Positions 2,802-22,758 of a stretch of DNA of 37,373 nucleotides are shown in pieces. The DNA lies in the NCBI GenBank assembly GCA_027340875.1, contig DAIENX010000090.1, positions 1-37,373 of the forward strand. Reading direction: 5' to 3'. The DNA comes from Elusimicrobiota bacterium. GTDB lineage: Bacteria; Elusimicrobiota; Elusimicrobia; Elusimicrobiales; UBA9959. The notes beneath the pieces were generated by a model. That model did not search any database, was not told the DNA's origin, and saw nothing but the letters and a program-made list of their open reading frames with translations. The number at the start of each line of letters is the position of its first letter. The first letter of the stretch is position 1. A program made the position numbers and the translations under genes.

Positions 2802-2926
2802 TATTTTAGCCCGCCCCTGGCCGGAACGCCTGAGGCGCGGGGCCCATCTATTCATGTTATTAGCCCCCCCGCTCCTGCCCCGGCGGCTTACGCCGGCAGG
2901 AGAACTAAAAACGATGTTTTATGACG
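2802..2926 (-). promoter_or_regulatory. Conserved upstream element, copy A
   Basis: + strand: TATTTTAGC(2802)-N17-GCCTGAGGC(2828)...GGCTTACG(ends 2892)...GTTTT-ATG-ACG(ends 2926); directly upstream of the gene starting at 2754. Confidence 0.75.
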
Positions 2927-2945
2927 CGGCAAACGGCTAAAGAGA

Positions 2946-2978
2946 GCCGCGCCCCCGGGGAGGCTCCGGGAGCGCGGC
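2946..2978 (-). terminator. GC-rich hairpin, probable intrinsic terminator
   Basis: GCCGCGCCCCCGG...CCGGGAGCGCGGC stem followed on the minus strand by TCTCTTT; homologous to the 9796..9826 hairpin. Confidence 0.6.
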
Positions 2979-3007
2979 GGGCCATTATCTCTTTCGACCT
3001 CTCCTGA

Positions 3008-3067
3008 TCACTTCGACGCGGTTTTGTATTCCAAAATCGTCGCCGTCGCTATCATTACTTTCTCCAT
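3008..3067 (-). pseudogene. 19-aa stub ORF (MEKVMIATATILEYKTASK), probable deletion remnant
   Basis: AAGGGA RBS; start resembles a signal-peptide n-region; followed by another AGGAGAGG RBS-like sequence just before the terminator. Confidence 0.35.
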
Positions 3068-3105
3068 GACTGTTTTTCCCTTATAAATATCGTTTTCCGC
3101 TAAAC

Positions 3106-3639
3106 TCACTTTAAGCTGCAACTCATCAGGACGGGAGCCTCGGGAGCCATATAATCGCCGTTATCAGAGTACACTGTAAAATAGGCCGGGAACGTTCCGG
3201 ACTGCCCGCCCGTAAATATGGCCTTCGGGAGAGAGAGTTCAAAACCTTCCCATGCGGTGGCGTCGCTGTAAAACTTCATAAACGAATATTTAGCCTCGTT
3301 GACGCGCATGATCCTCTCAAAGGTGAACTGCGCGGGCAGTTTTGTCGACATATTCAGCGGCAGACTGTCTTCAGGATCCGCCAGGACCAGCTTGGCTCCC
3401 TTCTCGCTTATAGTTCCCTTGAGCGCGGCTTTCTGTCCGGAAGAACACTCCAGCGACAGCCGCTTCGCTTTAGCGGCCGGGGCCTGGATCACGGCAGGCG
3501 CCGGTTCCGGCAGCTTTACGGATATCGCGCTGACTTCCCGAGGCGTCATCCTCTGCATGCCGGAGAAGTCGCCCGCAGACGCGCCGCAGACCGTCCCCAG
3601 TAGAATCGCTGCCAGCATTGTTTTTATCGTGTTATTCAT
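3106..3639 (-). CDS. Hypothetical secreted protein
   Basis: Signal peptide (MNNTIKTMLAAILLGTVCGASA), AAGGAG RBS, Pro-rich linker, Cys near both ends of the mature domain. Confidence 0.82.
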   Translation of the reverse strand: MNNTIKTMLAAILLGTVCGASAGDFSGMQRMTPREVSAISVKLPEPAPAVIQAPAAKAKRLSLECSSGQKAALKGTISEKGAKLVLADPEDSLPLNMSTKLPAQFTFERIMRVNEAKYSFMKFYSDATAWEGFELSLPKAIFTGGQSGTFPAYFTVYSDNGDYMAPEAPVLMSCSLK

Positions 3640-3733
3640 AATTTTCTTTTCTCCTTGTTCACCCGCTGTGCTGTATCGTTCTTCCCGGATCTGCTTGTCC
3701 AGGCGCGTGAAGGCTTTCTCCGGCCGGGCCGGC

Positions 3734-4648
3734 TTACTTGACCTTCAGCATGTCCACGGCGCCGATCTTCTCAAGACCGTCCACGGTCCGGCTGATCTCT
3801 ATGCGGGACTGCCAGCGCTGCATCTGCGAAGGTATGTTGTGGAGGGTGAGCGTGGTCACCAGTTCCAGCTTGCGGTCGGGACCGGCCTTGCGCGCCAGCA
3901 CGCCGCCTTTCAGCGACAGCGCCTTGAAACCGGCCAGGGACGGCTTGGCGTAGGAGTGGGGGTAGTTGTCGAAACTCTGCGTATTGTCCACGGAGGAGAC
4001 CAGGGCCATGCCGGGGGTCAGGATGTCGCGGTCCTCTACGAACTGGTTCATCAGCATGGCGTCCGGGTCGGCGGCCAGCTCCGAGCCGGCCAGCGGCTTG
4101 CCTTCCACCAGCACGTCAACTACGGCGTCGTTCATTTTGAGCAGGTTGACGGGAGTGTTATCGGCGGCGTAGCTCGCGAGGGCGGCTTTGCCCTGCATGC
4201 TGAGCGCGAAGAGCATGGTGTTGTCAGCCTTGGAATTGACGTAGACGGCCACGTCGAAGTTGTCCAACTTGGCGCCCTGGACGCCGTCGAAGGATTCGAT
4301 GGCCGGTATCAGCAGGCGGCCTGCGCCGTCTATCTCCACCGGAACGGTGCGGCTGCCGCAGACATGCGGCTGGGGCCAAAGGCCGGAGCGGTACATGCAG
4401 TTTACGACCAGCCTGGCCTTGTAGTCGGCCAGGTTGACGGAGTTCTGCTCAACCTGGAGCTGTACGGCCTTAGCCTGCAGCAGCACCTTCGCGGCGCTCT
4501 GCGCCTGCGGGATTGGCAGAACGTCGAAGGCGGAAGCCTTGGCCGCTATATCGGAGGCCTTCAGGCTCTGCAGGTCGGCCAGATCGGCCGCCTTGGCGCC
4601 CGCGGCGGCCAGCATCAGTATCATCGCTATCATTCCAGTCTTTTTCAT
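3734..4648 (-). CDS. Hypothetical secreted protein, paralog of 14195..15127
   Basis: Signal peptide; shares QLQVEQNSVNLADY, NCMYRSGLWPQPHVCGSR and HSYxKPSLA with 14195..15127; AAGGAG RBS. Confidence 0.88.
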   Translation of the reverse strand: MKKTGMIAMILMLAAAGAKAADLADLQSLKASDIAAKASAFDVLPIPQAQSAAKVLLQAKAVQLQVEQNSVNLADYKARLVVNCMYRSGLWPQPHVCGSRTVPVEIDGAGRLLIPAIESFDGVQGAKLDNFDVAVYVNSKADNTMLFALSMQGKAALASYAADNTPVNLLKMNDAVVDVLVEGKPLAGSELAADPDAMLMNQFVEDRDILTPGMALVSSVDNTQSFDNYPHSYAKPSLAGFKALSLKGGVLARKAGPDRKLELVTTLTLHNIPSQMQRWQSRIEISRTVDGLEKIGAVDMLKVK

Positions 4649-4690
4649 GATCTTCTCTCCTTATGTATGCCGGTTCGCCGGCCTCATTAA

Positions 4691-4816
4691 TAGTTTAGCT
4701 GTCCCGCGGGATTTCCGCCTGAGGCTGAGGTCACATCCCTGCGGCGTATTTCGCACTATTCGTTTTGCCCCGCCGGCTTACGTGGCGTGACGCGCCAGAA
4801 ACGCTGTTTCAGTACG
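4691..4816 (-). promoter_or_regulatory. Conserved upstream element, copy B
   Basis: TAGTTTAGC(4691)-N17-GCCTGAGGC(4717)...TTGCCCCGCCGGCTTACG(ends 4782)...GTTTC-AGT-ACG(ends 4816). Confidence 0.8.
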
Positions 4817-4961
4817 TGAAGCGGCCTTATAAAGGCACCTGGAAGCAGGAGACTCCGGCGGCGGTTCTGCGCCAACAGTCCGCTTACGGTGAAATCTACC
4901 TGTTTTGGGACCGCTTTTCCCAGGGCGGCCAGGGACCGGTCGTGAATATAGGACAAATAGA

Positions 4962-4999
4962 GGGGCGCAATACCCGGGCGAAGTCGAGTATTGCGCCCC
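4962..4999 (-). terminator. Hairpin downstream of 5021..6364, probable terminator
   Basis: Perfect 12-bp inverted repeat GGGGCGCAATAC / GTATTGCGCCCC, followed on the minus strand by TCTATTTGT. Confidence 0.65.
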
Positions 5000-5020
5000 C
5001 GTAACCCTGCCGGACCGCGC

Positions 5021-6364
5021 TTAGAGTGCGCAGGCGTTGGCGCGGATTATGAGCAGCTGCGCGTCGAGGGCCGCGGCTACGCTCTCCACCTCGTAACCGG
5101 ACAAGCGGGTATAGTCCGGGGTGCCGGCTATGGAAGCGGCCAGCTTGTGCAGACGGGCGGTGAAGCGCTCCATGCGCATAAGTTCCGTGCGCAGCGCCAT
5201 GCCGTCCAGCTCCCTTATGGCCTCCTCCATGCCGTACAGGGCGCCCTCGATGCCGAAGGAAGCGTCAGCCACGCCGCGCGTGTACGCCTCGGGCGCCTGG
5301 CCGTTGACGGCCATGGCCACGGTCTTGAGCCGCCCGGAGTGCATGCGCGACAGCCGCACGGCGCTGTCCAGGAAGGAATTGGGGGAGAGGCTCTTCTCCT
5401 GTGCCGCGCCGGTCTTATGCAGCGCGTCGTAGACGGGTTTGGCCACCACCACGTCCGTCACATAGTAATATTTGGCCAGGCCGAGGGCGGTGTCCGCCGC
5501 GTCCATCCCCGCCGCGTCCACTATGACCGTCCAGGGAAGCGTCCCGTGGACGGTTTTGAACTTATAGCCGGCCTTGGTCAGATCAGCGAAAACAATATCG
5601 ATGAATTGATTGTCGTCGATGTCCCAGGAGATGACCACTTTTATCTTGTCGTCGGCCATGTCGCCAGTTTTTATTTTGCGCAGGGCCATGTTCTGCTGGT
5701 TGTTCAGCTTCTTTTCAGACCTCTCCCGCATCTGGCCCACTATGAAGTCCCAGCAGGCCGGGGCCACGTCGTCGCTGCCCGCCCAGCCGGGGTTGGAGTA
5801 CTGGATGCCGCTGCTGGACAGTTCGTTCATGTCTACGGTGTAATTGTTATCGTAGTTGGAATCCCACTGCCCGTTGGCGAAGAAAGCCAGCTCTATCTTC
5901 TGTATCCCGCGGAAGCCCAGGTTGTCGGCCAGGGTGATGTAGTTCTCGTGGATCATCGCCGGGGTCATGAAGCCCGTGCCGTGCCACTCTTTGCCCAGCT
6001 CGATGTCGCGCGTGGACAGCTTGGTCCGGCCGTCCCCGCCGTAATACGAGACCATGACCCGCGCGGTTATCTTCTCGGCCCCGCCCAGGATGCCGCTTTT
6101 CTTATAGCCGATGATCAACCGCGTGTCCATCATGCCGCTGCCCACCGTGGCCAGCACGGCCGGGCCCCTGTTGACCACGTGCACCTTCTGATAACCGTAA
6201 TCCACCGGATAGTTGGACTTCTCCAGCTCCGGCATGGGGATGAAGACCCCTTCCTGCGCCTTAAGGTCGGCGGCCCTGAGGCCGTTGAGTTCCGCCCCGC
6301 CCGCGGCCAGAGCCGCGCCGGGCACCGCCGCCATCATCACCGCCAGCATTATCTTCTTGTTCAT
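5021..6364 (-). CDS. Secreted protein with CBM21/DUF6209-like WDxNY motif and a 106-aa inserted domain; paralog of 15182..16207
   Basis: Start set at MNKKIMLAVMMAA (6364) from the RBS and the paralog; IELAFFANGQWDSNYDNNY resembles starch/carbohydrate-binding module motifs; near-identical to 15182..16207 outside the insert. Confidence 0.85.
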   Translation of the reverse strand: MNKKIMLAVMMAAVPGAALAAGGAELNGLRAADLKAQEGVFIPMPELEKSNYPVDYGYQKVHVVNRGPAVLATVGSGMMDTRLIIGYKKSGILGGAEKITARVMVSYYGGDGRTKLSTRDIELGKEWHGTGFMTPAMIHENYITLADNLGFRGIQKIELAFFANGQWDSNYDNNYTVDMNELSSSGIQYSNPGWAGSDDVAPACWDFIVGQMRERSEKKLNNQQNMALRKIKTGDMADDKIKVVISWDIDDNQFIDIVFADLTKAGYKFKTVHGTLPWTVIVDAAGMDAADTALGLAKYYYVTDVVVAKPVYDALHKTGAAQEKSLSPNSFLDSAVRLSRMHSGRLKTVAMAVNGQAPEAYTRGVADASFGIEGALYGMEEAIRELDGMALRTELMRMERFTARLHKLAASIAGTPDYTRLSGYEVESVAAALDAQLLIIRANACAL

Positions 6365-6474
6365 TTGTTCCTGTCCTTTTCTGTGAGTTGATGGGGAACA
6401 GTGGTCTCCCCTGGTGTCCGGCAAAGCAGCTCTGCAACCGCCGGTCTTAGCGGCGCCCGCCTTCTGGCGCCGGG

Positions 6475-7149
6475 TCAGTTGCGGCACTTGACCGGCGCGA
6501 AGTAATAGGAGTAGATCTCTCCGCGGTTATCCCCGGGCACGATCCTGGTAATGATGTAGCCCGAATTCATCCTGACGGACATCACGCCCGTCTCCCAGTC
6601 AAGACCAAAGGATTCGGCGGCGGCGGAACCATTGGAGAATTTCGCCGGGTTCAGCGACACACGTGTGCTGCAGTAATCCACGACGAGCCGCTCTTCTCCG
6701 ATCTGGAACACCGCCGGGCCGTTTACGTTGAAGAGCGGCCCGCCGTCCGCGTAAGGGTTCGGCAGGGGCTGGCGTTGCCCGACAAACGCCGCGCGCATTA
6801 TCAGAGGTTTTCCGAGACCCATCATGAAAGACCTGCCCTCGAACATGCCGGTCAGGTCTGACTCCGAGGGTTGGGCGCCGGTATCGAACAGGCGCTTTAG
6901 TTCGACAAAAGGATTTGCCGGCCCCGCCGCGGCGTCTTTCAGCGCCGTTCCGGAGAACAGCGGCCCCGCGTCGTCCAGGACTTTGTCCAGGCAAGCCAGG
7001 CGCTCAATAGCGGCCGGTTCCGGGACTTTGATCTCTTCAGCCCTTTCCAGTTCCAGGCCGTTCATCGCGACGGCCGCTCTCTCCAGATCTCCGGCCCGGG
7101 CGGCGCCCGCGGCTGAAACAAGTATCAGTACCGCCAGTATCTTCTTCAT
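6475..7149 (-). CDS. Hypothetical secreted protein, divergent paralog of 16267..17010
   Basis: Leader MKKILAVLILVSAAGAARAGDLE; shared LFxxG...DLTG...GRxF, DxGPLF and C-terminal YxYYF motifs. Confidence 0.85.
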   Translation of the reverse strand: MKKILAVLILVSAAGAARAGDLERAAVAMNGLELERAEEIKVPEPAAIERLACLDKVLDDAGPLFSGTALKDAAAGPANPFVELKRLFDTGAQPSESDLTGMFEGRSFMMGLGKPLIMRAAFVGQRQPLPNPYADGGPLFNVNGPAVFQIGEERLVVDYCSTRVSLNPAKFSNGSAAAESFGLDWETGVMSVRMNSGYIITRIVPGDNRGEIYSYYFAPVKCRN

Positions 7150-7220
7150 AATTTATGTTTCTCCTTATATTTACCGGAACGCCTTGCCGTTGCTTGCCAG
7201 TCATTGTCCGGCTACATGTA

Positions 7221-7346
7221 TAGTTTATCCGCAAGGGGGCCTTTTCGCATGAGGCCGCGGTCCCGTCCCGGCGGCATATTTCGCACTACGCTCTTTGCCC
7301 CGCCGGCTTACGTCCGCGCACGAACTGCGATCGCTGTTTTGGCACG
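7221..7346 (-). promoter_or_regulatory. Conserved upstream element, copy C
   Basis: TAGTTTATC(7221)-N17-GCATGAGGC(7247)...TTGCCCCGCCGGCTTACG(ends 7312)...GTTTT-GGC-ACG(ends 7346). Confidence 0.8.
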
Positions 7347-7371
7347 CAGGCTGCCGCTACGCGCCCGCCCC

Positions 7372-7899
7372 TCACCGCATGCAGATATACTTGGCGAACG
7401 AGTAACCCGCGCCGGGGGTCTTTATATAACCGCCCATCTTCCCGTTCTTAAGCTTGTAGCCGCCGTCCATGAGCTGTTCCTCTGCGTAGAACTGGAACAG
7501 CGGGCCGTCGGCGTAGGAGCCGGAGTGCGGATCGACCACGTTGAATTTGCGGAACCCGACCAGCGAACTTCCGGCCTGGGGCGTGTAGCCCGGCACGGCG
7601 ACGTATTTTTCGGTGACGTAGTCCATCATGTCGAACGACAGGTACATGGTGTCCCGGCCGCTGAACCTCAGCGTCAGCTTCTCCAGATCGTACGGCTGGT
7701 TGTCGTCCACGCCGTAGCACTTAAATTTGAATTCCGCCCGCCTTTCCACCGCTGCCGCGGCCTTCGGGAGCGGCACCTCCGCCGCGGGCATAAGGGCCAG
7801 GTCCGCTGTCTTCATGCGCTGCAGGTCGGCAAGATCGGCCGCCTTGGCGCCCGCCGCCGCCAGCATCAGCATTACCACTATCATTCCGGTCTTTTTCAT
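7372..7899 (-). CDS. Hypothetical secreted protein
   Basis: Start set at ATG 7899 behind AAGGAGG; leader MKKTGMIVVMLMLAAAGAKAADLADLQ almost the same as that of 3734..4648, body unrelated. Confidence 0.85.
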   Translation of the reverse strand: MKKTGMIVVMLMLAAAGAKAADLADLQRMKTADLALMPAAEVPLPKAAAAVERRAEFKFKCYGVDDNQPYDLEKLTLRFSGRDTMYLSFDMMDYVTEKYVAVPGYTPQAGSSLVGFRKFNVVDPHSGSYADGPLFQFYAEEQLMDGGYKLKNGKMGGYIKTPGAGYSFAKYICMR

Positions 7900-7909
7900 G
7901 TTTTCCTCC

Positions 7910-8122
7910 TTAAAATCGCCGGTCTTGCCGGCCTGCCTCATCACTCCAGTAGCTGAATTCAGTCCGCGTTCTCCCCGCGGCTGCCGTATTCGGGATCCGT
8001 GCCCCTGCCGCCGGCGCCAGGCTCAGGTCCCTTGCCCTCAGGCGCTGCAGGTCGGCTATCTCGGCCGCCAGCGCGCCCGCGGCGATTCCCGCCATCACTA
8101 CCGCTATGATCAGTCCTTTCAT
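7910..8122 (-). pseudogene. Leader-only 70-aa ORF, probably a truncated paralog of 7372..7899
   Basis: ADLQRLRARDLSLAPAAGARIPNTAAAGRTRTEFSY aligns with ADLQRMKTADLALMPAAEVPLPKAAAAVERRAEFKF; the ORF ends just where the mature domain would begin. Confidence 0.65.
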
Positions 8123-8197
8123 GGTGTCTTCTTCGCTCCCCGCTTTCCTCCGGCCCGCCGCGCTGACCGGAGGTCTTCTTCTTCACTCTTCCGCGTC

Positions 8198-9610
8198 TCA
8201 GTCGCTGTCGCTTTCCACGATGCACTCCATGTAGTGGTAGGTCTGGGTCATGTCGGCGCCGGGGCCGGGGTCCACGCAGCTGCCGGCCGGGACGTCCTTC
8301 ATGATCTTCAGGAACTCGTCCCACCTGGTGGCTCCGGCCCAGGCCAGCTGGTCGTATCTGCGGTTATAGCCCTTGAACGGCAGGTATACGGCCAGGCCGT
8401 TGGAATGGCCGGCGGGCAGGTTGACGGTGGCGGCGTCGATAAGAAGCCTGTCGCGCAGGACCGTCATCAGGTTTTCGGCCCTGCCGGCCAGCGCGGGATC
8501 CGCTTTGGCCGTCCTGGCGGCAAAATCATACAGATCGCGGTTGTCATCATAGGCATAATGGCTGGTGCGGAAAATCTTCAGTTTCAGCCGCGGCTTCAGG
8601 TCGGAACCCAGCAACGCGTCGGTCCAGTTGTTGAAGGCGTCCATGAATTCCGGCAGGGCGGACATGCGTACCGCGGAGATAGTGACCTTGTCCTTGCGGG
8701 AGCCGTAGAAGCCGGCATAAGCGCGCACCATGGCGGCGGCCAGCTGTTCCGGGCTCTTTTGGGCGGCGGCGAACTCCGGCAGGAAGCCGTCGTAGGGGAA
8801 GCCGAAGCCCGGCACGGTCTCTTCGGAGCCCACCACGTAGTCCGCGTGACCCTTGACCTCGTAAAGCAACTCCGCCATCTGCATCAGGCAGGCGTCGTAG
8901 GCCAGTATGTCCACCTTCCCGATGGCGCGCAGGGCGGCGCCAAGCTCGGGGGTGGAGATATGGTTCTTGGTCTCATAGTCGTATGAGATCCCTTTGGTCA
9001 TCTCTGCGGGTACGGTGTCCTTGGAGGTGATCCAGCCGGAGCCGTGGTTCCAGATTATCAGGGCGTAATGGCGGGCGGGGAAGTTCTCCATGCCCCAGCG
9101 GGCGAAGTCAACAAGGTGCCGCCAGTCGCCCATGTCCACGTTCGCGAAAGACTGCAGCTCGGGGGAACTTATCGTCATTTCGTCGGTGTCTAGGGTAACG
9201 TAGTAGCGGCGCGAGCCGGTCCAGTCGCCGTCGAAGTGCACGTCGTTATCCTGCCCGTTCATGCGTCCTATCTCGGTGACGATATTGAGCGAATCCCCGG
9301 AACCGGTAAGTTCCATCTTGTTGAGGTTGTAAAGACCGGCCACCTCCAGATCGTTCTTGCCGTTTACATAGACTAACACGGTCCATTCCTTAAGCGGCTG
9401 AGGAAGGACGGGGGATATGGCCTGGGCCTGCGGCTGGATCCAGCCGAAAGCGCCTTTAGCCGGGACCGGCGCGGGAATAGCGGGATCAGTCGGACTGCCG
9501 CTCCTCGCGCGCAGGGTCTCAAAAGCTCGGCCGCGTCCTGCCGCCAGGGCCGGAATCGAGAGCGCCAGGGAAACCATCAGGAGAAGTATCGCCTTTTTCA
9601 TGATTTTCAT
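8198..9610 (-). CDS. Clostripain-related cysteine peptidase (family C11), secreted, second copy
   Basis: Signal peptide; EWTVLVYVNGKNDLE, IIWNHGSGW, YDACLMQ and GSEETVPG motifs; AAGGA RBS favours ATG 9610; short two-Cys C-terminal tail. Confidence 0.92.
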   Translation of the reverse strand: MKIMKKAILLLMVSLALSIPALAAGRGRAFETLRARSGSPTDPAIPAPVPAKGAFGWIQPQAQAISPVLPQPLKEWTVLVYVNGKNDLEVAGLYNLNKMELTGSGDSLNIVTEIGRMNGQDNDVHFDGDWTGSRRYYVTLDTDEMTISSPELQSFANVDMGDWRHLVDFARWGMENFPARHYALIIWNHGSGWITSKDTVPAEMTKGISYDYETKNHISTPELGAALRAIGKVDILAYDACLMQMAELLYEVKGHADYVVGSEETVPGFGFPYDGFLPEFAAAQKSPEQLAAAMVRAYAGFYGSRKDKVTISAVRMSALPEFMDAFNNWTDALLGSDLKPRLKLKIFRTSHYAYDDNRDLYDFAARTAKADPALAGRAENLMTVLRDRLLIDAATVNLPAGHSNGLAVYLPFKGYNRRYDQLAWAGATRWDEFLKIMKDVPAGSCVDPGPGADMTQTYHYMECIVESDSD

Positions 9611-9648
9611 TTGAGCCAGTCCTTTGCCTGAAGTATCGTCCACAACTA

Positions 9649-9773
9649 TAGTTTAGCCAATGCCCGGCTGGAAAGCCTGAGGCGCGTGGTCCCTTTATCC
9701 ATGTTATTGGCCCCCCCGCCCTTACCCCGGAGGCTTACGCGCGGCCGAGTATCAAAACCGAGGTTTTGCAACG
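9649..9773 (-). promoter_or_regulatory. Conserved upstream element, copy D
   Basis: TAGTTTAGC(9649)-N17-GCCTGAGGC(9675)...TTACCCCGGAGGCTTACG(ends 9739)...GTTTT-GCA-ACG(ends 9773). Confidence 0.8.
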
Positions 9774-9790
9774 CCGGCGGCAGCATGAAG

Positions 9791-9826
9791 AAAAACCGCG
9801 CCCCCGGGAAGGCCCCGGGGGCGCGG
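9791..9826 (-). terminator. Rho-independent terminator after 9867..10445
   Basis: 13-bp perfect stem CCGCGCCCCCGGG / CCCGGGGGCGCGG, then TTTTTCTT on the minus strand. Confidence 0.8.
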
Positions 9827-9866
9827 CGGACCGTGGCGGACGCCATGGTCTGCTGGAGCAATACGG

Positions 9867-10445: not shown

Positions 10446-10483
10446 CTCATTGTCTCCGTGTCCTTGTCTGGCTTCCCGTGCTC

Positions 10484-11500
10484 TCAGTACTGGCGGCAGC
10501 CGTAGAAGTCGTGCTGCGCGAGCCGCTTTATGGAATCAGGCGCGAGCAGGCCGTCATCCATGTTGAGCATTCTTCCGTAAAAGATCTCTACGGACGCCCT
10601 GTCGCCGAACACCTGAAGGGTAATCAGCCGCTCCGAGGCGTAATCGTAAGTGGAGAAAGCGGAGTTCCACTTAACGCGCCCCCCGATGAGGATCAGCTCA
10701 TCGTTGCGCCAGACCCCGGTGTTAGGGTTGAGGTTGGGCAGATTGCTCCCCAGGTTGTAGAACGCGTTGTTGACGTTCCTTAACACAAGCTGCTTTCTGG
10801 GCCTGCTCCCCTCAGAAATATCCAGCGTCAGGCCGTCGCATTTGACAACGGGGCGCCAGGTCGTCCCGGCGGAGCGCTCTTCGGCGGATCCGGCTGAAAC
10901 GTCGGCGCTCTTGATATCGTCCTCTATAGTATGTCCCACGGGGTAACCGTAGAGCTGGGCTGGCAGCAGCTTCTTCTTGACGGCGTCCTTGTACGCCTTC
11001 TCGCTGCTGAAAGTCACCACGATCGCCTGTTCGCCGCCGTGCCCGAGCACCTTAAGCCCGGTCACGCCCGGTATAGCCATGAGCTGCGCCCTGTGCATCT
11101 CCATGACCGCGGAGGCCGAAAGAGGGGCTATCTTGTCATTCTCTATCGTATGTCCCACGGGGTAACCATAGAGCTTAGCGGGCAGCAGCTTCTTTTTGAC
11201 GGCGTCCTTGTACGCCTTCTCGCTGCTGAAGGTGACCACGATCGCCTGCTCGCCGCCGTGCCCGAGCACCTTAAGGCCGGTCACGCCGGGTATGGCCATG
11301 AGCTTGGCGCGGTGCATCTCCAGGACCTCCGCGGCCGAAAGAGGAACTATTTCCGGCCTCGGAACTGCGACCTTCGCCTCCATGGCTTGAGTCATATTGA
11401 CCCTCTCAAGCGAAACGGCCGCGGCCGCTTTTTCAAGATCACCGGCGCGGACTACGCCCGCCGCGGAGACCAGTACCAGCATCGCTATCATCTTTTTCAT
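10484..11500 (-). CDS. Secreted protein with two tandem 73-aa repeats
   Basis: Leader of the AGDLE type; RBS spacing favours ATG 11500 over 11509; internal duplication LMAIPGVTG...AIVVTF...LP..LYGYPV. Confidence 0.85.
   Translation of the reverse strand: MKKMIAMLVLVSAAGVVRAGDLEKAAAAVSLERVNMTQAMEAKVAVPRPEIVPLSAAEVLEMHRAKLMAIPGVTGLKVLGHGGEQAIVVTFSSEKAYKDAVKKKLLPAKLYGYPVGHTIENDKIAPLSASAVMEMHRAQLMAIPGVTGLKVLGHGGEQAIVVTFSSEKAYKDAVKKKLLPAQLYGYPVGHTIEDDIKSADVSAGSAEERSAGTTWRPVVKCDGLTLDISEGSRPRKQLVLRNVNNAFYNLGSNLPNLNPNTGVWRNDELILIGGRVKWNSAFSTYDYASERLITLQVFGDRASVEIFYGRMLNMDDGLLAPDSIKRLAQHDFYGCRQY
10921..11345. repeat. Intragenic tandem duplication, 219-bp period, two copies
   Basis: About 10921..11126 and 11140..11345 are near-identical (shadow ORFs start at 10977 and 11196, offset 219). 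Confidence 0.92.
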
Positions 11501-11573
11501 AATTTCCATTTCTCCTTATTGTGTTACCGGAAGCGCCTTGCCGTTGTTGTCCTCTATCGTCCGGCTGTATACA

Positions 11574-11698
11574 TAGTTTACGCTGCGAGCGGCCTTCTCG
11601 CATGAGGCCATGGTCCCGGAGAACGGCATTTTTCGCACTACCGCCGTTGCCCCCCCGGCTTACGCCCGCGCACGGACCATATCCGAAGTTTTAGTACG
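11574..11698 (-). promoter_or_regulatory. Conserved upstream element, copy E
   Basis: TAGTTTACG(11574)-N17-GCATGAGGC(11600)...TTGCCCCCCCGGCTTACG(ends 11664)...GTTTT-AGT-ACG(ends 11698). Confidence 0.8.
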
Positions 11699-11771
11699 TT
11701 TACGTACGCGGCGCATGCGGTGCTCATCATCGTTTTCCTCATGACTTCCCTTCTCGCTCGCCCGTCCGTCG

Positions 11772-11992
11772 GTCGCCGTCGAAGTGCGCGTCGTATCCTG
11801 CCCGTTCATGCGGCCTATCCCGGTGACGATACTGAACAAATCCCCGGAACCCGCGGGGATAGCGGGATCAGCCGGACTGCCGCTCATCGCGCGCAGGGGC
11901 TACGGAACTCCTCCGCGTCCTGCCGCCAGGGCCGGCGCCGCGAACGACATAGAAACCGTCAGGAGAAGTATCGTTCTTTCCATGCTTTTCAT
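11772..11992 (-). pseudogene. Clostripain pseudogene derived from a gene like 8198..9610
   Basis: MKSMERTILLLTVSMSFAAPALAAGRGGVP* (TAG at 11900-11902), then SGSPADPAIPA fused to GSGDLFSIVTGIGRMNGQD (55-codon deletion), a 1-nt frameshift and loss of the rest. Confidence 0.88.
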
Positions 11993-12030
11993 TTGAGCCC
12001 GTCATTTTCCTGAAGTACCGTCCACAACTA

Positions 12031-12155
12031 AAGTCTAACCAGCGCCCGGCTGGATAGCCTGGGGCGCGGAACATATTTGTCTATGTAATTGGACCCGTGG
12101 TCCTTACCCGGCAGGTTCACACGGGCTGGCGGACGAAAAAGCAAGTTTTTGGACG
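12031..12155 (-). promoter_or_regulatory. Conserved upstream element, copy F (decayed)
   Basis: AAGTCTAAC(12031)-N17-GCCTGGGGC(12057)...TTACCCGGCAGGTTCACA(ends 12121)...GTTTT-TGG-ACG(ends 12155); same spacing, three boxes mutated. Confidence 0.7.
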
Positions 12156-12184
12156 CCGAAAAGCGTGCGTCTGGAACGCCGCGC

Positions 12185-13084
12185 CTACCATGCGGCCATC
12201 CCGGAGCCGCCGGTGAACCAGATATAATCGGCCGGCGGCGGGGCTATCTCCGCCGGCTTCCCGGGAGCGGCGGCGCCGGAGACGTAAACTGAGACCTGCG
12301 AGATCCCCGGCACAGCGGATTTTATCCGGGCCGGCACCCCCGCGTTGTACATTATCCGTCCGTTGCCGGTCAGCACCAGCAGGGAATAGTCCGGATTTTC
12401 GCCCAGAAAGCAGATAATGCGCGCGGCCAGCGCCGCGTTCCAGGCTGAAATGGAGAACAGATAGTTCTCCCACTCGGTCCTTTTCGCCGCGCTGCCCGCG
12501 TAAAAGCTTCTTTTTAAATACGCCAGGTACGGCTTATCCGCGTTCATGCGGATATCCTGCGGCAGCATCGCCCTTTCGCCCCGGTCAAGGGAAGCTATTC
12601 CGCCCTGCGCCAGCTTCGCGGGCAGGCCGCGCGGCAGATCAAGGGCCAAGACCTTCAGCTTATGTTCCCGGATATAAACGAAAAGCGGCTTGTACGGCGT
12701 GAAAGCGGCTTGTCCGCTCCAGGCGGAGCCTGACAGGAACTCCTTCTCCGGTATCCGGCCCGCGAGATAGCCGTCCAGCAGACGCTGGCTGCCTGAAGGC
12801 ACCATTTCCAGCCCTACCGCGACGCGGCCGCGCGCTTTTACCATCATATCGAGTATCTCTAGCCTGGCCAGCTGGCTTCTGGCGGATCCGCCGACCTCTC
12901 CGGCGTAAACCACGCGGGCGCCGCTTACCGCGTCCTCGAAAGCTGCCCTGGAAAGCCTGGTGCCGACGCGGGGATTGACCACGGCGAAGACGGGACTGTC
13001 GAACATCGAGAACGAAGGGGCGCCGGCGGCCGCGCGGCCTGGGCCGCCCGCCAGCAGCAGGGAAAAGCAAAGCACCGCTCTCAT
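12185..13084 (-). CDS. ChaN/DUF399-like exported protein (EreA/ChaN fold), degenerate motifs
   Basis: RVVYAGE, VAVGLEM, LDGYLAGRI.EKEFL, YKPLF, LAQGGIASL and LTGNG...GVPARI follow the ChaN pattern; N-terminal signal peptide. Confidence 0.75.
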   Translation of the reverse strand: MRAVLCFSLLLAGGPGRAAAGAPSFSMFDSPVFAVVNPRVGTRLSRAAFEDAVSGARVVYAGEVGGSARSQLARLEILDMMVKARGRVAVGLEMVPSGSQRLLDGYLAGRIPEKEFLSGSAWSGQAAFTPYKPLFVYIREHKLKVLALDLPRGLPAKLAQGGIASLDRGERAMLPQDIRMNADKPYLAYLKRSFYAGSAAKRTEWENYLFSISAWNAALAARIICFLGENPDYSLLVLTGNGRIMYNAGVPARIKSAVPGISQVSVYVSGAAAPGKPAEIAPPPADYIWFTGGSGMAAW

Positions 13085-13112
13085 ATGTCCGTCATCCTGA
13101 TCTCCGTGCGGC

Positions 13113-14003
13113 TCAGACTTCCCAATATATGAACGCGCTCGCCGGGAACCGCACGAGCTGCGCCAGCTTCTCCCGGCCGAGGCTGCGCTCTATGGCCAGC
13201 GCCTTGTGGCAGCCCGCGATATAGAACAGCCGCTCCCTGGACAATTCCTCAAGTATCCGGTCCCTGAACCCTCCGGTGAGCGCCTCTTTTGAGCGCGCCT
13301 CCAACTCCCAGAGCAGCGCGTCGAAAACGCGCAGTTTTTTCTCCAGGTCTCCCGCGCTCTCCAGAACGGAATAGTCGCGCGCGTCCAGCGCGCCCGCGCT
13401 CCTGCGCTTTTCGTAGGGGACCAGGGTGGCCAGGCCCTCGTTCATGGTGAATTCCATCACGAATTCCTTAAGATCCCCAACCGTCCTCGCGGCGGCCAGG
13501 TCCGGCAATCCGCGATAATATTCGAAACCCAGGTGGAAAAGCTCGTGCGGCAGGGAAAGGAGGAGTTCCCGTCTGTCCGCCAGGAAGCGCCCGTCGTTAA
13601 GGTTCACTACCACCTGCCCGTCCAGCGCTATACCGTCGCAGCCTCCCAGCGCGAATCGCACCACGGCCGTCTCGCAATAATCCTGCGGCAGATACCGCAG
13701 GTGCAGGGACAGGAACTCGTCGCGGATGGCAGGCTCGTTCTCCTTCAGGTATTTCAAGGCGGCCGCCAGTCCGGCGCGGTTCCCGGCAAGCCCGCCCAGA
13801 CCCGCTTCGGGAGAGCCTTTTCTGAAAGCCTGCGCCAGGGTTTGCGCGGAAAGCGGCCTGGAACAGTATCTGCGGCTGTGACTGACAATAAGCCGGTAGG
13901 CGGTATGCCCGAGCAGTTCTTTCAGTTTCCCGGGCGCGGGACGCTCAAGATACTCCAGCGCGGCCTCGGCCGCGGAGTAGTCCATCTCCACCTTTTGCGC
14001 CAT
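13113..14003 (-). CDS. Putative Zn-dependent protease (DUF5700/DUF2268-like)
   Basis: HELFH plus downstream NEGLA third-ligand motif; no signal peptide. Confidence 0.72.
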   Translation of the reverse strand: MAQKVEMDYSAAEAALEYLERPAPGKLKELLGHTAYRLIVSHSRRYCSRPLSAQTLAQAFRKGSPEAGLGGLAGNRAGLAAALKYLKENEPAIRDEFLSLHLRYLPQDYCETAVVRFALGGCDGIALDGQVVVNLNDGRFLADRRELLLSLPHELFHLGFEYYRGLPDLAAARTVGDLKEFVMEFTMNEGLATLVPYEKRRSAGALDARDYSVLESAGDLEKKLRVFDALLWELEARSKEALTGGFRDRILEELSRERLFYIAGCHKALAIERSLGREKLAQLVRFPASAFIYWEV

Positions 14004-14005
14004 AG

Positions 14006-14170
14006 TTATGAAGTTACAGGCAAACCGGCGGACTTCGGAACTTCCCAGGCGCCCAGCTCGGAAGCAGTCCCCTTTATCCAGAAGTCATCGGCTGCCGCGA
14101 TGAAAGCCCTGTCCCGCGGGGAGGCGGCAGCCAACAGGACCAGCGCCCCTGTCACTACGACATCCCTCAT
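14006..14170 (-). pseudogene. 54-aa leader-like stub ORF
   Basis: Not in the ORF track. GGAGGAG RBS, then MRDVVVTGALVLLAAASPRDRAFIAAADDFWIKGTASELGAWEVPKSAGLPVTS*; fills the gap between two genes. Confidence 0.5.
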
Positions 14171-14194
14171 ATTCTCCTCCGTCCGCCCGCGTTC

Positions 14195-15127
14195 CTAGTA
14201 CGCCTTCACGAGGTCGAGCCGCACTATCCGCTGCAGCCCGTCTACAGACCTCTCTATTTTCGCGCGGCCGCGGTAGCTCTCGGTCACCGTGTATGCCGTG
14301 CCCAGCCGGAGATCTGCAAAGAGCGACCAGCCGCGGGGGCTGTCCGCCCACTCGACCATCACCGCGGAGCCGAACTCCAGCGCCCGGAAAGCGGCCAATG
14401 AAGGCTTGGGATAACTGTGCTGGGCGTTATCCAGGCTCTGTATCCCGGTAAGGGGGGTCGCCAGCACCACCGGGTCTATGTCTTCGCCCGGGACGTGCGC
14501 GCTGTCGACGAAGGCCATGAACCTGGAGCTCTGGTCCTGCGCCATAGCGGAACCGGCCAGCGGCTTGCCTTCCACCAGCACCTCCACCTTGGCGGCGTTG
14601 AGCTTCAGCAGGCTGATGGCGCCGGTCTTGCGCGCGTAGGCAGCCAGGCCTTTCCTGCCGCTGGCGCCCAGCGTGAACAGCCAGTCGCGCGGATCGCCCT
14701 TTCTGGCGACGGTCACGCGCAGATCGAAGTTGTCGGGGTTCGCGCCGCGCGGGCCGTCGAACGCCTCGATGGGCGGCAGTATAAGCCTGCCGTCGGACGT
14801 TATTTCCACCGGCAGAACGCGGCTGCCGCAGACGTGCGGCTGCGGCCACAGGCCGGAGCGGTACATGCAGTTTACGATCAGCGTGGCCTCGTAATCCGCC
14901 AGGTTCACGGAATTCTGCTCCACCTGGAGCTGCATGGTCTTGGCGTCCACCAGCGTCTTGCCTTGCGCGTTTCCATGAACGCCGGGAAGCGCCGCCTCTA
15001 TCCCGGCCAGACCGGCCCTTATGCCGGCGGCGGTGACCCCGCCCAGCGCGTCGAAATCCGCCGCCCTCGCTCCGCCGGCCATGCACAGCACGGCCACGAT
15101 CATCAGATATTTTTTCATATTAGACAC
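14195..15127 (-). CDS. Hypothetical secreted protein, paralog of 3734..4648
   Basis: Signal peptide MKKYLMIVAVLCMAGGARA (start GTG 15127 or ATG 15118); shared body motifs with 3734..4648. Confidence 0.88.
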   Translation of the reverse strand: MSNMKKYLMIVAVLCMAGGARAADFDALGGVTAAGIRAGLAGIEAALPGVHGNAQGKTLVDAKTMQLQVEQNSVNLADYEATLIVNCMYRSGLWPQPHVCGSRVLPVEITSDGRLILPPIEAFDGPRGANPDNFDLRVTVARKGDPRDWLFTLGASGRKGLAAYARKTGAISLLKLNAAKVEVLVEGKPLAGSAMAQDQSSRFMAFVDSAHVPGEDIDPVVLATPLTGIQSLDNAQHSYPKPSLAAFRALEFGSAVMVEWADSPRGWSLFADLRLGTAYTVTESYRGRAKIERSVDGLQRIVRLDLVKAY

Positions 15128-15181
15128 TCTTCAGGTGGTCTCCTTTATATTTTCCATGCCCCGCGCGCTTTCCCCGGCAGC

Positions 15182-16207
15182 CTACAGGAGACTGGCGTTG
15201 GCACGGATGATGAGCAGCTGCGCGTCGAGCGCCGCTGCCGCGCTCTCCACCTCGTAGCCCGACAACCTGGTATAGTCCGGGGTGCCGGCTATGGAAGCGG
15301 CCAGCTTGTGCAGGCGGGCAGTGAAGCGCTCCATGCGCGTAAGCTCCATACGCAGCGCCATGGCGTTGCGCTCCTTTATAGCCTCCTCCATGCCGTACAG
15401 GGCGCCCTCTATGCCGAAAGAGACGTCGCCCACGCCGCGCGTGTACGCCGCCGGGACCTGGCCGTTGATCGCCATGGCCACGGTCTTGAGCCGCTCGGAG
15501 TGCATGCGTGACAGCCGCACCGCGCTGTCCAGGAAGGAATTAGCCGGGAGCCCCTTTTCCGGCATATCCCGCATCTGGGCCACGATGAAGTCCCAGCACT
15601 GCGGGGCCACCTCATTGCTGCCCGCCCAGCCGGGGTTGGAGTACTGGATGCCGCTGTTGGACAGATCGTTCATGTATACGGTGTAATTGCTGCCGTAGTT
15701 GGAATCCCACTGGCCGCCCGCGAAGAAAGCCAGCTCTATCTTCTGTATCCCGCGGAAGCCCAGGTTGTCCGACAGGGTGATATAGTCCTGGTGGATCATG
15801 GCCGGGGTCATGAAGCCGGTGCCGTGCCACTCCTTGCCCAGCTCGACGTCGCGCGTGGACAGCTTGGTCCGGCCGTCCCCGCCGTAATACGAAACCATGA
15901 CCCGCGCGGTTATCTTTTCCGCCCCGCCCAGGACGCCGCTCTTCTTATAGCCGATGATCAACCGCGTGTCCATCATGCCGCTGCCGACGGTGGCCAGCAC
16001 GGCCGGGCCCCTGTTGACGAGGTGCACCTTCTGGTAGCCGTAATCCACCGGATAGTTGGACTTGACCAGTTCCGGCATGGGGATGGAAACGCCTTCCTGA
16101 GCCCTGACGTCCCCGGCCTTCAGGCCGTTCAACTCCGCCCCGCCCGCGGCCAGCGCCGCGCCGGGCGCCGCCGCCATCATCACCGCCAGTATCATCTTCC
16201 TGTTCAT
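15182..16207 (-). CDS. Secreted protein with CBM21/DUF6209-like WDSNYGSNY motif; paralog of 5021..6364
   Basis: Signal peptide, GGAGG RBS, near-identity to 5021..6364 but without its insert. Confidence 0.88.
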   Translation of the reverse strand: MNRKMILAVMMAAAPGAALAAGGAELNGLKAGDVRAQEGVSIPMPELVKSNYPVDYGYQKVHLVNRGPAVLATVGSGMMDTRLIIGYKKSGVLGGAEKITARVMVSYYGGDGRTKLSTRDVELGKEWHGTGFMTPAMIHQDYITLSDNLGFRGIQKIELAFFAGGQWDSNYGSNYTVYMNDLSNSGIQYSNPGWAGSNEVAPQCWDFIVAQMRDMPEKGLPANSFLDSAVRLSRMHSERLKTVAMAINGQVPAAYTRGVGDVSFGIEGALYGMEEAIKERNAMALRMELTRMERFTARLHKLAASIAGTPDYTRLSGYEVESAAAALDAQLLIIRANASLL

Positions 16208-16266
16208 TCTGTTATCCTCCTGATAATTTTTTCCTGCACCGCCGCTCTCTTGTCTGCCGGCCTTCT

Positions 16267-17010
16267 TCAGTCGCGCGGGGTCAAGTCCATAAAATAATAG
16301 GTATAGAGCGTCTTCAATATACGCCCGGAGGCGGTATCCTTCTCGGTGAACTTCTCGACCAGATATTCCCCGGCTTTCCGTTCCTCGATGATCTGCTGGA
16401 TACCGTTGTTCCAGTTCATGACAGCCCGGGCTTCCGGGAAAATCATATAGTTGCGCTGCGGAGACTCCGGATGGCGGCGGACCCCGAAGGCGAAACTATA
16501 GTAATACGGATACTGGAAGAGGTGCTCTAGGCCTTTAAGCGCCCTTTTGTTGTAGTACTCGATGTCGTTCTCTATAAAACCGATCGCGAACCTCTCCTTG
16601 CCGGAAGAGCCGAACAGCGGGCCCTCGTCCGTTGCGCCGGCCGCCTCGTACTCCGATACCTTGACCACCATTCCTATCATGGCGCCCTTGGCGACCGTGC
16701 CGGCGGCCGTGAAAGTGCGGCCGGCCTTAATGCCGGTCAGGTCGGCCTGGGTGGCCGGGACGCCGCGCTCGAACAGGGCCTTCACCTTTTCGTAGCTGGT
16801 GGCGCCGGGCAGCCCCAGCAGTTCGCTGGGAGCCGTCTTGTCCATTTCGCCCAGCGCTGCGGCGGCGGAAGGTTCCGGGACCTTCATGTCCGCGGCCCGT
16901 TCCAGTCTGAGGTCAGTCAGGGCGGCCGCGGAGGCGGCGCTCTCCAGGTCCCCGGCCCGGGCGAGGCCCGCTGCCGAGACCAGTATCAGTATTGTCAGTA
17001 TCTTTTTCAT
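16267..17010 (-). CDS. Hypothetical secreted protein, divergent paralog of 6475..7149
   Basis: Start set at MKKILTILILVSAAGLARAGDLE (17010) behind GGAGGAGAAGAGG; shared motifs with 6475..7149. Confidence 0.85.
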   Translation of the reverse strand: MKKILTILILVSAAGLARAGDLESAASAAALTDLRLERAADMKVPEPSAAAALGEMDKTAPSELLGLPGATSYEKVKALFERGVPATQADLTGIKAGRTFTAAGTVAKGAMIGMVVKVSEYEAAGATDEGPLFGSSGKERFAIGFIENDIEYYNKRALKGLEHLFQYPYYYSFAFGVRRHPESPQRNYMIFPEARAVMNWNNGIQQIIEERKAGEYLVEKFTEKDTASGRILKTLYTYYFMDLTPRD

Positions 17011-17088
17011 TTCCTCTTCTCCTCCTATGAGTCCCGGATTCGCGGAGCGCCTTGCCGTCATTTGTCCGCTGTTCTCCGGCCGTGTATA

Positions 17089-17214
17089 TAGTTTAGCCGC
17101 AAGCGGCCTCCCTCGCCTGAGGCGGCGGACCCGACCCGGCCCTGTATTCTTTCCCATAGCTTTTGCCCGGGCGGCTTACGCGCCGGAATGCAGTAAAAAC
17201 GCGGATTAGTTACG
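17089..17214 (-). promoter_or_regulatory. Conserved upstream element, copy G
   Basis: TAGTTTAGC(17089)-N17-GCCTGAGGC(17115)...TTGCCCGGGCGGCTTACG(ends 17180)...GATTA-GTT-ACG(ends 17214). Confidence 0.8.
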
Positions 17215-19767: not shown

Positions 19768-20844
<1,077 letters not shown>

Positions 20845-20880
20845 ATATGTTCGCTCCTGATCCCGTACTTAAAAATCCGT

Positions 20881-22704
<1,824 letters not shown>

Positions 22705-22758
22705 CTATATAATACAATAATTCAGAGCGGCGCCAGCGCCGGCGGCGCGCGGCCGGCC

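What the first reader, a model, noticed from the sequence alone, without database searches (positions are those of the whole stretch)
2802..17214. Seven copies of a 125-126 bp four-box element with fixed spacing head the transcription units of a secreted-protein array
Seen: copies at 2802, 4691, 7221, 9649, 11574, 12031 and 17089. In gene direction each reads CGT-N3-AAAAC-N23-CGTAAGCC..GGGGYAA...GCCTCAGGC-N17-GCTAAACTA. The spacers diverge in sequence but not in length: 17 nt between the two proximal boxes, 56-57 nt end-to-end to the CGTAAGCC box and 34 nt to the distal CGT in all seven. Every copy lies 39-79 nt upstream of a signal-peptide gene, and I saw none in the housekeeping half. Inference: TAAACT is a -10 box, there is no canonical -35, and the palindrome GCCTNAGGC plus two distal boxes are protein-binding sites. 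That would make this a multi-site activator-dependent or alternative-sigma promoter defining an unknown secretome regulon. A role as recombination or cassette-exchange sites is the alternative; no regulator or recombinase gene is in the window.
Basis: partly seen in the sequence, partly recalled or inferred. Interest (0 to 1): 0.9.

Follow-up and report, generated by a model that had tools for sequence, protein, structure and literature searches.

The report
Two-tier promoter of Elusimicrobia secretome
The repeated 125-base block is a regulated promoter in front of exported-protein genes, and it most likely needs two proteins to switch on: a response regulator conserved across this bacterial class, and a member of an uncharacterised regulator family whose gene copies sit next to their own versions of the upstream binding site.

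Summary
The element is real: 7 copies in the window and 7 more in this Elusimicrobia genome. It is not a structured RNA, and nothing favours a recombination site. GCCTNAGGC is the right half of a 16-bp site at about -42.5 plus the degenerate -35. That site recurs every 22-23 bp, like DosR boxes. Its simple form is common in genomes with one conserved NarL/DegU-type response regulator (503 sites in 48 genomes) and at background without it (20 in 70). The distal box belongs to an operator that changes with the clade of an adjacent XRE-HTH/winged-HTH (DUF4423-like) gene; 70 of 141 such genes have an element beside them. The window has no such gene; six domains lie in the sister arrays. No binding or transcription start is shown. 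The scan noted each tier before, separately, on other genomes (e1-2368049; e1-2363020, e1-900804); here they are joined and tested across the phylum.

The parts
2802..2926 (-). Element copy 1; heads ORFs starting at 2754, 2290, 1664 (clostripain family) and 333
4691..4816 (-). Element copy 2; heads ORFs starting at 4648 and 3639
7221..7346 (-). Element copy 3; heads ORFs starting at 7149 and 6364
9649..9773 (-). Element copy 4; heads the clostripain-family gene (start 9601/9610) and ORFs starting at 8122 and 7899
11574..11698 (-). Element copy 5; heads ORFs starting at 11500/11509 and about 10426
12031..12155 (-). Element copy 6, the most degenerate; heads a truncated 27-codon signal-peptide remnant related to the gene at 9601
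17089..17214 (-). Element copy 7; heads ORFs starting at 17010, 16207, 15118, probably running on to 14003 and 13084
   Evidence: operon extent inferred from gene order
9749..9772 (-). Example (copy 4): distal operator, window type G-N4-A-[A-tract, N3, T-tract]-T-N4-C, everted palindrome centred about -118; proposed site of the XRE/wHTH paralogues
   Evidence: binding inferred
9722..9737 (-). Example (copy 4): site I, TAAGCC-N4-GGGYAA, weak response-regulator-like box centred about -87
   Evidence: binding inferred
9701..9716 (-). Example (copy 4): site II, weak box with conserved left half and AATA, centred about -65
   Evidence: binding inferred
9678..9693 (-). Example (copy 4): site III, TRGGNC-N4-GCCTCA type, centred about -42.5, abutting the -35
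9673..9678 (-). Example (copy 4): degenerate -35 position (begins AGGC or ATGC in 14 of 14 genome copies)
9650..9655 (-). Example (copy 4): -10 box TAAACT; start predicted near 9643, not measured
   Evidence: inference

Best explanation
The element is a two-input sigma-70 promoter. Tier 1: a single-copy NarL/DegU/DosR-type response regulator (G000 C109:26236-26910, behind a receiver-plus-kinase gene) binds as dimers to 16-bp TRGGNC-N4-GNCCYA boxes at about -42.5, -65 and -87 and recruits RNA polymerase to a promoter whose -35 is poor. About 28 other promoters in this genome have only these boxes and mostly precede exported proteins. Tier 2: in the long element the boxes are weak, so a dimeric XRE-HTH/winged-HTH regulator (distant DUF4423/TIGR02147 relative) bound at the distal operator, at a fixed distance from site I, is needed to stabilise or license the array. 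Paralogues carry clade-specific operators, so each addresses its own subset of secreted-protein operons. For the window's copies the best candidates are the paired and fused paralogues inside the sister array on C66, acting in trans. SHOWN: copies, geometry, -10/-35 register, signal-peptide bias, adjacency of regulator and element in relatives, operator symmetry, co-occurrence of box and response regulator. INFERRED: every protein-DNA contact, activation rather than repression, the AND logic, which paralogue serves the window, the start sites, and the signals.
For: Register: promoters with TTGAC align with the element so that ATGC/AGGC sits at -35, 17 nt from TAnnnT. DosR precedent (passages read): tandem in-phase boxes at -42.5 and -63.5, with G and C half-site bases and G12 kept (PMC3177182); contacts by N167, K168, K179, T180, K182, N183 (PMC13486717). 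The C109 protein has N-K and K-T-V-K-N at the same spacing; the genome's other two LuxR-type regulators do not. The simple box pattern numbers 503 in 48 genomes with the orthologue (backwards control 69) and 20 in 70 without (control 101); a wrong spacing gives 0-5 per genome. A box model from the 28 simple promoters peaks at exactly the three positions 10, 55 and 33 nt upstream of GCCTCA in 44 long elements of relatives. Adjacency: 22 of 51 strong element hits in relatives lie within 300 nt of a regulator gene, about 0.15 expected; 70 of 141 regulator domains have an element within 420 nt, 43 divergent and 27 tandem; strong elements (E<=1e-7) occur in 22 of 48 genomes with the family and 0 of 31 without. 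Operator: symmetry peaks 95 nt (long class, 3.75 of 7 pairs, median 1.82, n=53) or 72 nt (short class, 3.05, median 1.72, n=98) upstream of GCCTCA, one 23-bp unit apart; 4.74 of 7 within elements against 2.97-3.15 at shifted control positions over 23 clusters; half-sites differ by clade yet stay symmetric. In 25 of 40 divergent pairs a -10-like hexamer of the regulator's own gene lies 6-26 nt beyond the operator, and in 6 more the operator ends within 8 nt of its start codon (no shuffle control). Protein: model pLDDT 89.6, XRE-like 3-86 and winged-helix 122-207; homodimer score 0.68, best control 0.01, a mark reached by 20 of 30 solved pairs and 1 of 23 single chains, runs agree in at least 96% of contacts, pLDDT at least 78. 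Signal-peptide heuristic: 12 of 14 genome copies, 17 of 25 simple promoters, 118 of 137 in relatives, against 23 of 122 canonical promoters.
Against: No binding, start-site or expression data. The window contig has no regulator gene, and none of the 7 regulator domains of this genome has an element within 420 nt. The 13 C53/C66 copies lack the 21-bp palindrome of the relatives (15% reach 6 of 7 pairs, same as shuffles) and have an everted one instead (6.15 of 11 pairs, median 2.85), so their assignment to the family rests on position and on similar operators in some clades. Recognition-helix identity explains nothing beyond tree distance (partial r -0.02), so co-inheritance of neighbours is not excluded as the cause of the clade pattern. 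Sites I and II score weakly as response-regulator boxes (-7 to +2 bits against a median 11 for simple promoters). Three distant homologues with the same K-T-V-K-N helix sit in genomes with 1, 1 and 0 boxes; 8 of 48 orthologue-bearing genomes have fewer than 4; no box was found upstream in 26 regulator loci. Box and regulator co-occur largely along one clade, so another clade-wide protein could be the binder. In other families only 1 of 22 regulator loci has this element.
Confidence: 0.6

Rival explanations
1. One-protein model: the XRE/wHTH dimer alone reads the whole element, the XRE heads on the distal operator and the winged helices (or further dimers) on the TRAGC/TRGGC repeats every 22-23 bp; the likeness to response-regulator boxes is inherited but no longer used.
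For: The protein has two DNA-binding folds per chain. Sites I and II have their own strongly conserved bases (TAAGCC, GGGCAA, AATAC) that depart from the simple box and score weakly against it. The operator-to-site-I distance is rigid.
Against: Site III keeps the simple-box geometry and score (about 6-11 bits in 5 of 7 window copies). The same boxes occur without any paralogue in the genome, e.g. family f2 with 0 of 70 genomes carrying the family. The winged-helix recognition helix is alanine/lysine-rich and poorly conserved.
Confidence: 0.15
2. Response regulator only: the element is an ordinary DosR-like three-box promoter, and the distal operator merely autoregulates the adjacent paralogue gene (or represses the target) and was carried along when promoter, ribosome site and signal peptide duplicated as a block.
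For: Promoter-plus-signal-peptide blocks are shared by genes whose mature parts do not align. In divergent pairs the operator overlaps the regulator's own promoter or start. The window copies lack the left half-site of the relatives' operator.
Against: The distal block is conserved in all 13 C53/C66 copies, none of which has a regulator gene directly beside it, across duplication subfamilies. The operator is also kept in tandem layouts downstream of the regulator gene, where it cannot autoregulate (27 of 70).
Confidence: 0.17
3. Recombination or cassette-exchange site: a site-specific recombinase shuffles secreted-protein cassettes at these elements.
For: The array was not found at this position in the five same-genus genomes searched. 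Similarity between copies often begins within about 10 nt of the distal CGT.
Against: One element heads one to several genes; it has a full promoter register; similarity between copies 1 and 4 runs 57 nt past the distal box into the upstream terminator. No recombinase in the window; the genome's two tyrosine and three serine recombinases lie on other contigs. Homologous recombination between the repeated blocks remains possible.
Confidence: 0.04
4. Structured RNA leader or small RNA.
For: None beyond repetition.
Against: No Rfam match; the consensus fold of 14 copies has 3 pairs and -3.9 kcal/mol; the conserved part lies upstream of the -10 box.
Confidence: 0.01

Closest known systems
DevR/DosR regulon promoters of Mycobacterium tuberculosis (NarL subfamily; PMC3177182, PMC13486717, passages read)
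   Same: Two to four tandem in-phase boxes, proximal box at -42.5/-43.5 beside a suboptimal -35, G-N-C half-sites with a 4-bp centre, degenerate secondary boxes, same K-T-x-K-N recognition residues in the candidate regulator.
   Different: Period 22-23 bp rather than 21; targets are exported proteins; the kinase is a receiver-plus-kinase protein with no sensor or membrane domain evident from its sequence; an extra distal operator linked to a second regulator family.
DUF4423 (PF14394) / TIGR02147-type proteins of Bdellovibrionota and Fibrobacterota
   Same: N-terminal XRE helix-turn-helix followed by a DUF4423-like region, about 280 aa; expanded as paralogues here (up to 22 matches per genome).
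   Different: The Elusimicrobia proteins are distant (46 of 116 match PF14394 at E<=0.01, best 1.5e-8; the three of this genome that match score 17-21 bits, cut-off 30). No target or operator was found in print: one paper mentions DUF4423, in a proteomics table.
Controller (C) proteins of restriction-modification systems and phage cI-type XRE regulators (function recalled; fold match)
   Same: XRE head (C.AhdI Z 6.8, rmsd 2.4, 63 residues), palindromic operators beside the regulator's own gene, family members with distinct operator sequences.
   Different: Three-domain protein with a winged helix and a C-terminal dimerisation domain; operator 110-135 bp upstream of a target promoter that also carries response-regulator-like boxes.
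DegU/ComA control of secreted enzymes in Bacillus (recalled)
   Same: A NarL-family response regulator over an exoprotein regulon; the best structural hit of the DNA-binding domain has the same K-T-V-K-N-H helix (7x1k; recalled as DegU, labelled otherwise in the table).
   Different: Different phylum, different box, no evidence for the same signal.

Membership tests
Activator-dependent (class II-type) sigma-70 promoter | -10 hexamer TAnnnT with 17-nt spacing to a weak -35 | tested here: met
Activator-dependent (class II-type) sigma-70 promoter | conserved site centred near -42 abutting the -35 | tested here: met
   (position assumes a start 7 nt after the -10)
Activator-dependent (class II-type) sigma-70 promoter | mapped start site and dependence on the activator | not testable with these tools
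   needs start-site mapping and in vitro transcription
DosR/NarL-type tandem-box regulon | palindromic G-N-C / 4 bp / G-N-C boxes, two or more in phase | tested here: met
   site III clear, sites I and II weak
DosR/NarL-type tandem-box regulon | NarL-family regulator with the K179/K182/N183-equivalent residues in the genome | tested here: met
DosR/NarL-type tandem-box regulon | regulator and box co-distributed | tested here: met
   clade-confounded, and three distant homologues lack boxes
DosR/NarL-type tandem-box regulon | autoregulatory box before the regulator's operon | tested here: inconclusive
   none in 26 loci, but the operon start may lie beyond the DNA fetched
DosR/NarL-type tandem-box regulon | DosR-type targets (hypoxia/dormancy genes) and a gas-sensing kinase | tested here: not met
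   targets are signal-peptide genes; the kinase ORF begins with a receiver domain. Works like DosR promoters, is not the DosR regulon
DosR/NarL-type tandem-box regulon | phosphorylation-dependent cooperative binding | not testable with these tools
   needs footprinting
DUF4423 / TIGR02147 family | PF14394 above its curated cut-off, or an NCBIfam family hit | tested here: not met
   three proteins of this genome score 17-21 bits, cut-off 30, two do not match; no TIGR02147 hit for 5 proteins. Filed as a distant relative only; bit scores of the 116 members were not shown
DUF4423 / TIGR02147 family | XRE head plus DUF4423-like body | tested here: met
Integron-like or site-specific recombination array | dedicated recombinase at the array and one site per cassette | tested here: not met
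Structured non-coding RNA motif | conserved, covarying secondary structure | tested here: not met

The most novel reading that the evidence does not exclude
Elusimicrobia use a modular addressing system for their secretome: one class-wide response regulator gates all export promoters, and an expanding family of DUF4423-like XRE/winged-helix paralogues (up to 22 matches per genome, including tandem pairs and single-chain fusions) each reads its own operator variant at a fixed helical distance, so that new passenger genes recruited behind a promoter-plus-signal-peptide block fall under a chosen paralogue. This would give a first function and a testable specificity code to a large uncharacterised regulator family that is also expanded in Bdellovibrionota and Fibrobacterota.
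Probability: 0.45. Interest if true: 0.7.

Novelty: new variant of a known kind. Interest (0 to 1): 0.52.

Why it matters
Almost nothing is described about gene control in Elusimicrobiota (six literature searches gave no description of this promoter, the regulator pair or DUF4423 targets). The finding names a probable master regulator of the class, its box and its regulon of exported proteins, and gives matched protein-operator pairs for an uncharacterised family, which makes its function testable by simple binding assays. The mechanism itself (co-dependent activation at a sigma-70 promoter) is a known kind, and the scan had already noted each tier on other genomes.

Tried and rejected
RNA motif: no Rfam hit, 3-pair consensus. 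Recombination site: see rivals. Alternative sigma: 11 sigma region-2 matches in the genome, but the 6+17+6 register with TAnnnT fits the primary sigma; not excluded experimentally. CRP/FNR proteins (three) and the other two LuxR-type regulators were considered for the 16-bp box; the latter lack K-T-V-K-N; their distribution was not tested. My first genome scan used a wrong spacing and was redone. A best-palindrome-anywhere test was noisy and was replaced by position-fixed profiles. A residue-level code between recognition helix and operator was not shown (partial r -0.02). The shallow-alignment model (pLDDT 64) gave no Foldseek match at E<=0.001. Expression: no RNA holder listed; three same-study RNA runs gave only short unrelated pieces; no evidence either way. 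A generic TTGACA/TATAAT scan does not pick out the element. Synteny: five same-genus genomes share flanking genes, but the array was not found. Earlier-finding look-ups by sequence and by relatives were blank. Supplements of the three papers were not opened.


Full report
Observation. The seven copies are at the stated places on the minus strand with the stated spacings. A weight-matrix scan of the 2.8-Mb genome finds 14 copies at 37-71 bits: seven in the window, six in a second secreted-protein array on contig C66 and one on C11; the best unrelated hit scores 14.8 and the reversed genome at most 20.9. Copy 12031 is the most degenerate and heads a 27-codon remnant. The window's genes are mostly without Pfam family; two are clostripain-family proteases, and none is a regulator or recombinase (31 proteins scanned).

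Re-parsing the proximal part. Iterating a model of the proximal 52 nt over the genome and fetched loci gave 204 distinct hits against 3 in reversed sequence. Among them are promoters with canonical TTGAC in the same register, which puts the last four bases of GCCTCAGGC at the -35 position, 17 nt from TAnnnT; the -35 begins AGGC or ATGC in 14 of 14 genome copies. What precedes it is a 16-bp site, TRGGNC-N4-GNCCYA, centred near -42.5 if transcription starts 7 nt after the -10. The genome has about 28 further promoters with this site and often a weaker one 22-23 bp upstream. A symmetrised model from those 28 peaks at 10, 55 and 33 nt upstream of GCCTCA in 44 long elements of relatives (the first position is partly circular, and the class was chosen by the site I motif). 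In the window copies site III scores 5.7-10.7 bits in five of seven, sites I and II only -7 to +2.

Tier 1 candidate. This is the geometry described for DosR: tandem in-phase boxes at -42.5 and -63.5 with degenerate secondary boxes (PMC3177182, abstract and passages), read by K179, K182 and N183 with backbone contacts from N167, K168 and T180 (PMC13486717, passages). Of three LuxR-type regulators in the genome only C109:26236-26910 has N-K and K-T-V-K-N at that spacing; its best solved relatives are VraR and DevR. It is single-copy here and found in 72 of 80 genomes of the family and 110 of 251 sampled from the phylum. The pattern RGGNC-N4-GNCYY-N23-TAnnnTA counts 503 in 48 genomes with the orthologue (backwards control 69) and 20 in 70 without (control 101) (genomes not listed were taken as having no match); a wrong spacing gives 0-5 per genome. 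Against: three distant homologues with the same helix sit in genomes with 1, 1 and 0 boxes, 8 of the 48 have fewer than four, no box was seen upstream in 26 regulator loci, and the split follows clades, so another protein with the same range is not excluded.

Tier 2 candidate. Six of seven domains of an uncharacterised family lie inside or beside the C66 and C11 arrays, as two tandem pairs and one fusion. The family is in 49 of 80 genomes of the family. A sequence model of the element hit 58 of 80 genomes. Using the listed rows only (150 of 184 regulator matches; the 134 non-self rows among 150 of 250 element matches), 22 of 51 hits of at least 30 bits lie within 300 nt of a regulator gene, about 0.15 expected. 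In fetched loci, which cover all but 8 of the listed regulator regions, 70 of 141 domains have an element within 420 nt (a few more were missed by the threshold). Elements at E<=1e-7 occur in 22 of 48 genomes with the family and 0 of 31 without. Upstream of site I the relatives carry a 21-bp palindrome centred 95 nt (three-site class) or 72 nt (two-site class) from GCCTCA. Its half-site differs by regulator clade (for example TGGTAAC, GTTAAGC, TAGTGC, TRGWGAC) and stays symmetric: 4.74 of 7 pairs against about 3.0 at shifted control positions over 23 clusters; operator identity falls more slowly with tree distance than spacer identity. Helix residues add nothing beyond tree distance (partial r -0.02), so a residue code is not shown. 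In 25 of 40 divergent pairs the operator lies 6-26 nt upstream of a -10-like hexamer of the regulator's own gene, and in six more it ends within 8 nt of the start codon (uncontrolled), as expected for autoregulation. The protein folds confidently (pLDDT 89.6) into an XRE head and a winged helix (Z about 7-8, middling) and is a distant relative of DUF4423 proteins. A homodimer through residues about 224-283 scores 0.68, best control 0.01; that mark was reached by 20 of 30 solved pairs and 1 of 23 single chains; runs agree in at least 96% of contacts, pLDDT at least 78. This supports but does not show dimer formation.

The window's variant. The 13 C53/C66 copies keep the half-site nearest site I at the same position but not the far one. 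They show instead an everted symmetry, G-N4-A-N12-T-N4-C around an A-tract and T-tract (6.15 of 11 pairs, median 2.85). By inspection, similar operators accompany relatives whose helix reads F-S-Y-R, as in one partner of the C66 pairs; this was not counted. No regulator gene is on the window's contig, which ends inside the array, and none of the genome's seven domains has an element within 420 nt. The link for these copies is therefore weaker than for the family as a whole. In other families of the class only 1 of 22 regulator loci has this element.

Targets. A signal-peptide heuristic (any of the first three long ORF starts) is met after 12 of 14 genome copies, 17 of 25 simple promoters and 118 of 137 hits in relatives, against 23 of 122 canonical promoters. 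Promoter, ribosome site and signal peptide are shared as a block by genes whose mature parts do not align (4648, 7899, 8122; 2754, 9601, 11983), which suggests that the array grows by duplication of the 5' block and replacement of the passenger.

Mechanism and rivals. Most likely (0.6): a two-input promoter in which the phosphorylated response regulator occupies sites I-III and recruits polymerase, and a paralogue dimer at the distal operator makes the weak sites usable. Rivals: response regulator alone with a hitch-hiking or repressing operator (0.17), paralogue alone (0.15), recombination site (0.04), RNA (0.01). No binding, start site or expression was measured.

Comparison and novelty. It works like DosR-regulon promoters but is not that regulon (different targets and kinase); the second protein resembles DUF4423/TIGR02147 proteins without the tested members reaching the family cut-off. 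Six searches found no description of the element or of targets of this family; I saw listings only, except passages of PMC12546842, PMC13486717 and PMC3177182. I had recorded the paralogue reading before the first look-up and the DosR reading; the scan had noted each on other genomes (e1-2368049; e1-2363020, e1-900804). New here: both tiers in one promoter, the 23-bp modular step between two- and three-site classes, the phylum-wide box/regulator count, and clade-specific operators. Verdict: new variant of a known kind, interest 0.52.

Noticed in passing
window 7899, 8122, 4648 and 2754, 9601, 11983 (minus strand gene starts): Genes share promoter and/or ribosome site, signal peptide and the first 25-70 codons, but their mature regions do not align: apparent passenger swapping behind an export block.
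   Followed up: partly
window 11660-12030: Broken duplicate of the 5' part of the clostripain-family gene at 9601, with a stop after 27 codons and a later fragment 91% like 9247-9304.
   Followed up: partly
window 10917-11350: Internal tandem duplication of about 215-219 nt (89% identical) in the gene starting at 11500; a paralogue on C66 (36084) aligns over its first 131 residues.
   Followed up: no
window 5021-6364 and 15182-16207; 3734-4648 and 14195-15118: Two pairs of paralogous secreted proteins without Pfam family; the 447-aa member has about 80-100 residues absent from the 341-aa one.
   Followed up: no
L001:12240-13964 (G000 C66:32240-33964): Natural single-chain fusion of the two regulator paralogues that occur as separate adjacent genes at C66:40761 and 41622, suggesting a heterodimer.
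   Followed up: partly
G000 C109:26236-28116: Response regulator and receiver-plus-kinase pair conserved at 61-99% identity across much of the class, upstream of pilin-like, TadE-like and FtsH-like ORFs here (names from inspection); probable master regulator.
   Followed up: partly
L243-L246 and other hits: Clostripain-family genes occur in many copies in five same-genus genomes, some in tandem.
   Followed up: no
window 19768-25116: Type IV pilus/T2SS ATPase and platform genes beside the array, with a 785-aa proline/alanine-rich ORF without Pfam match.
   Followed up: no
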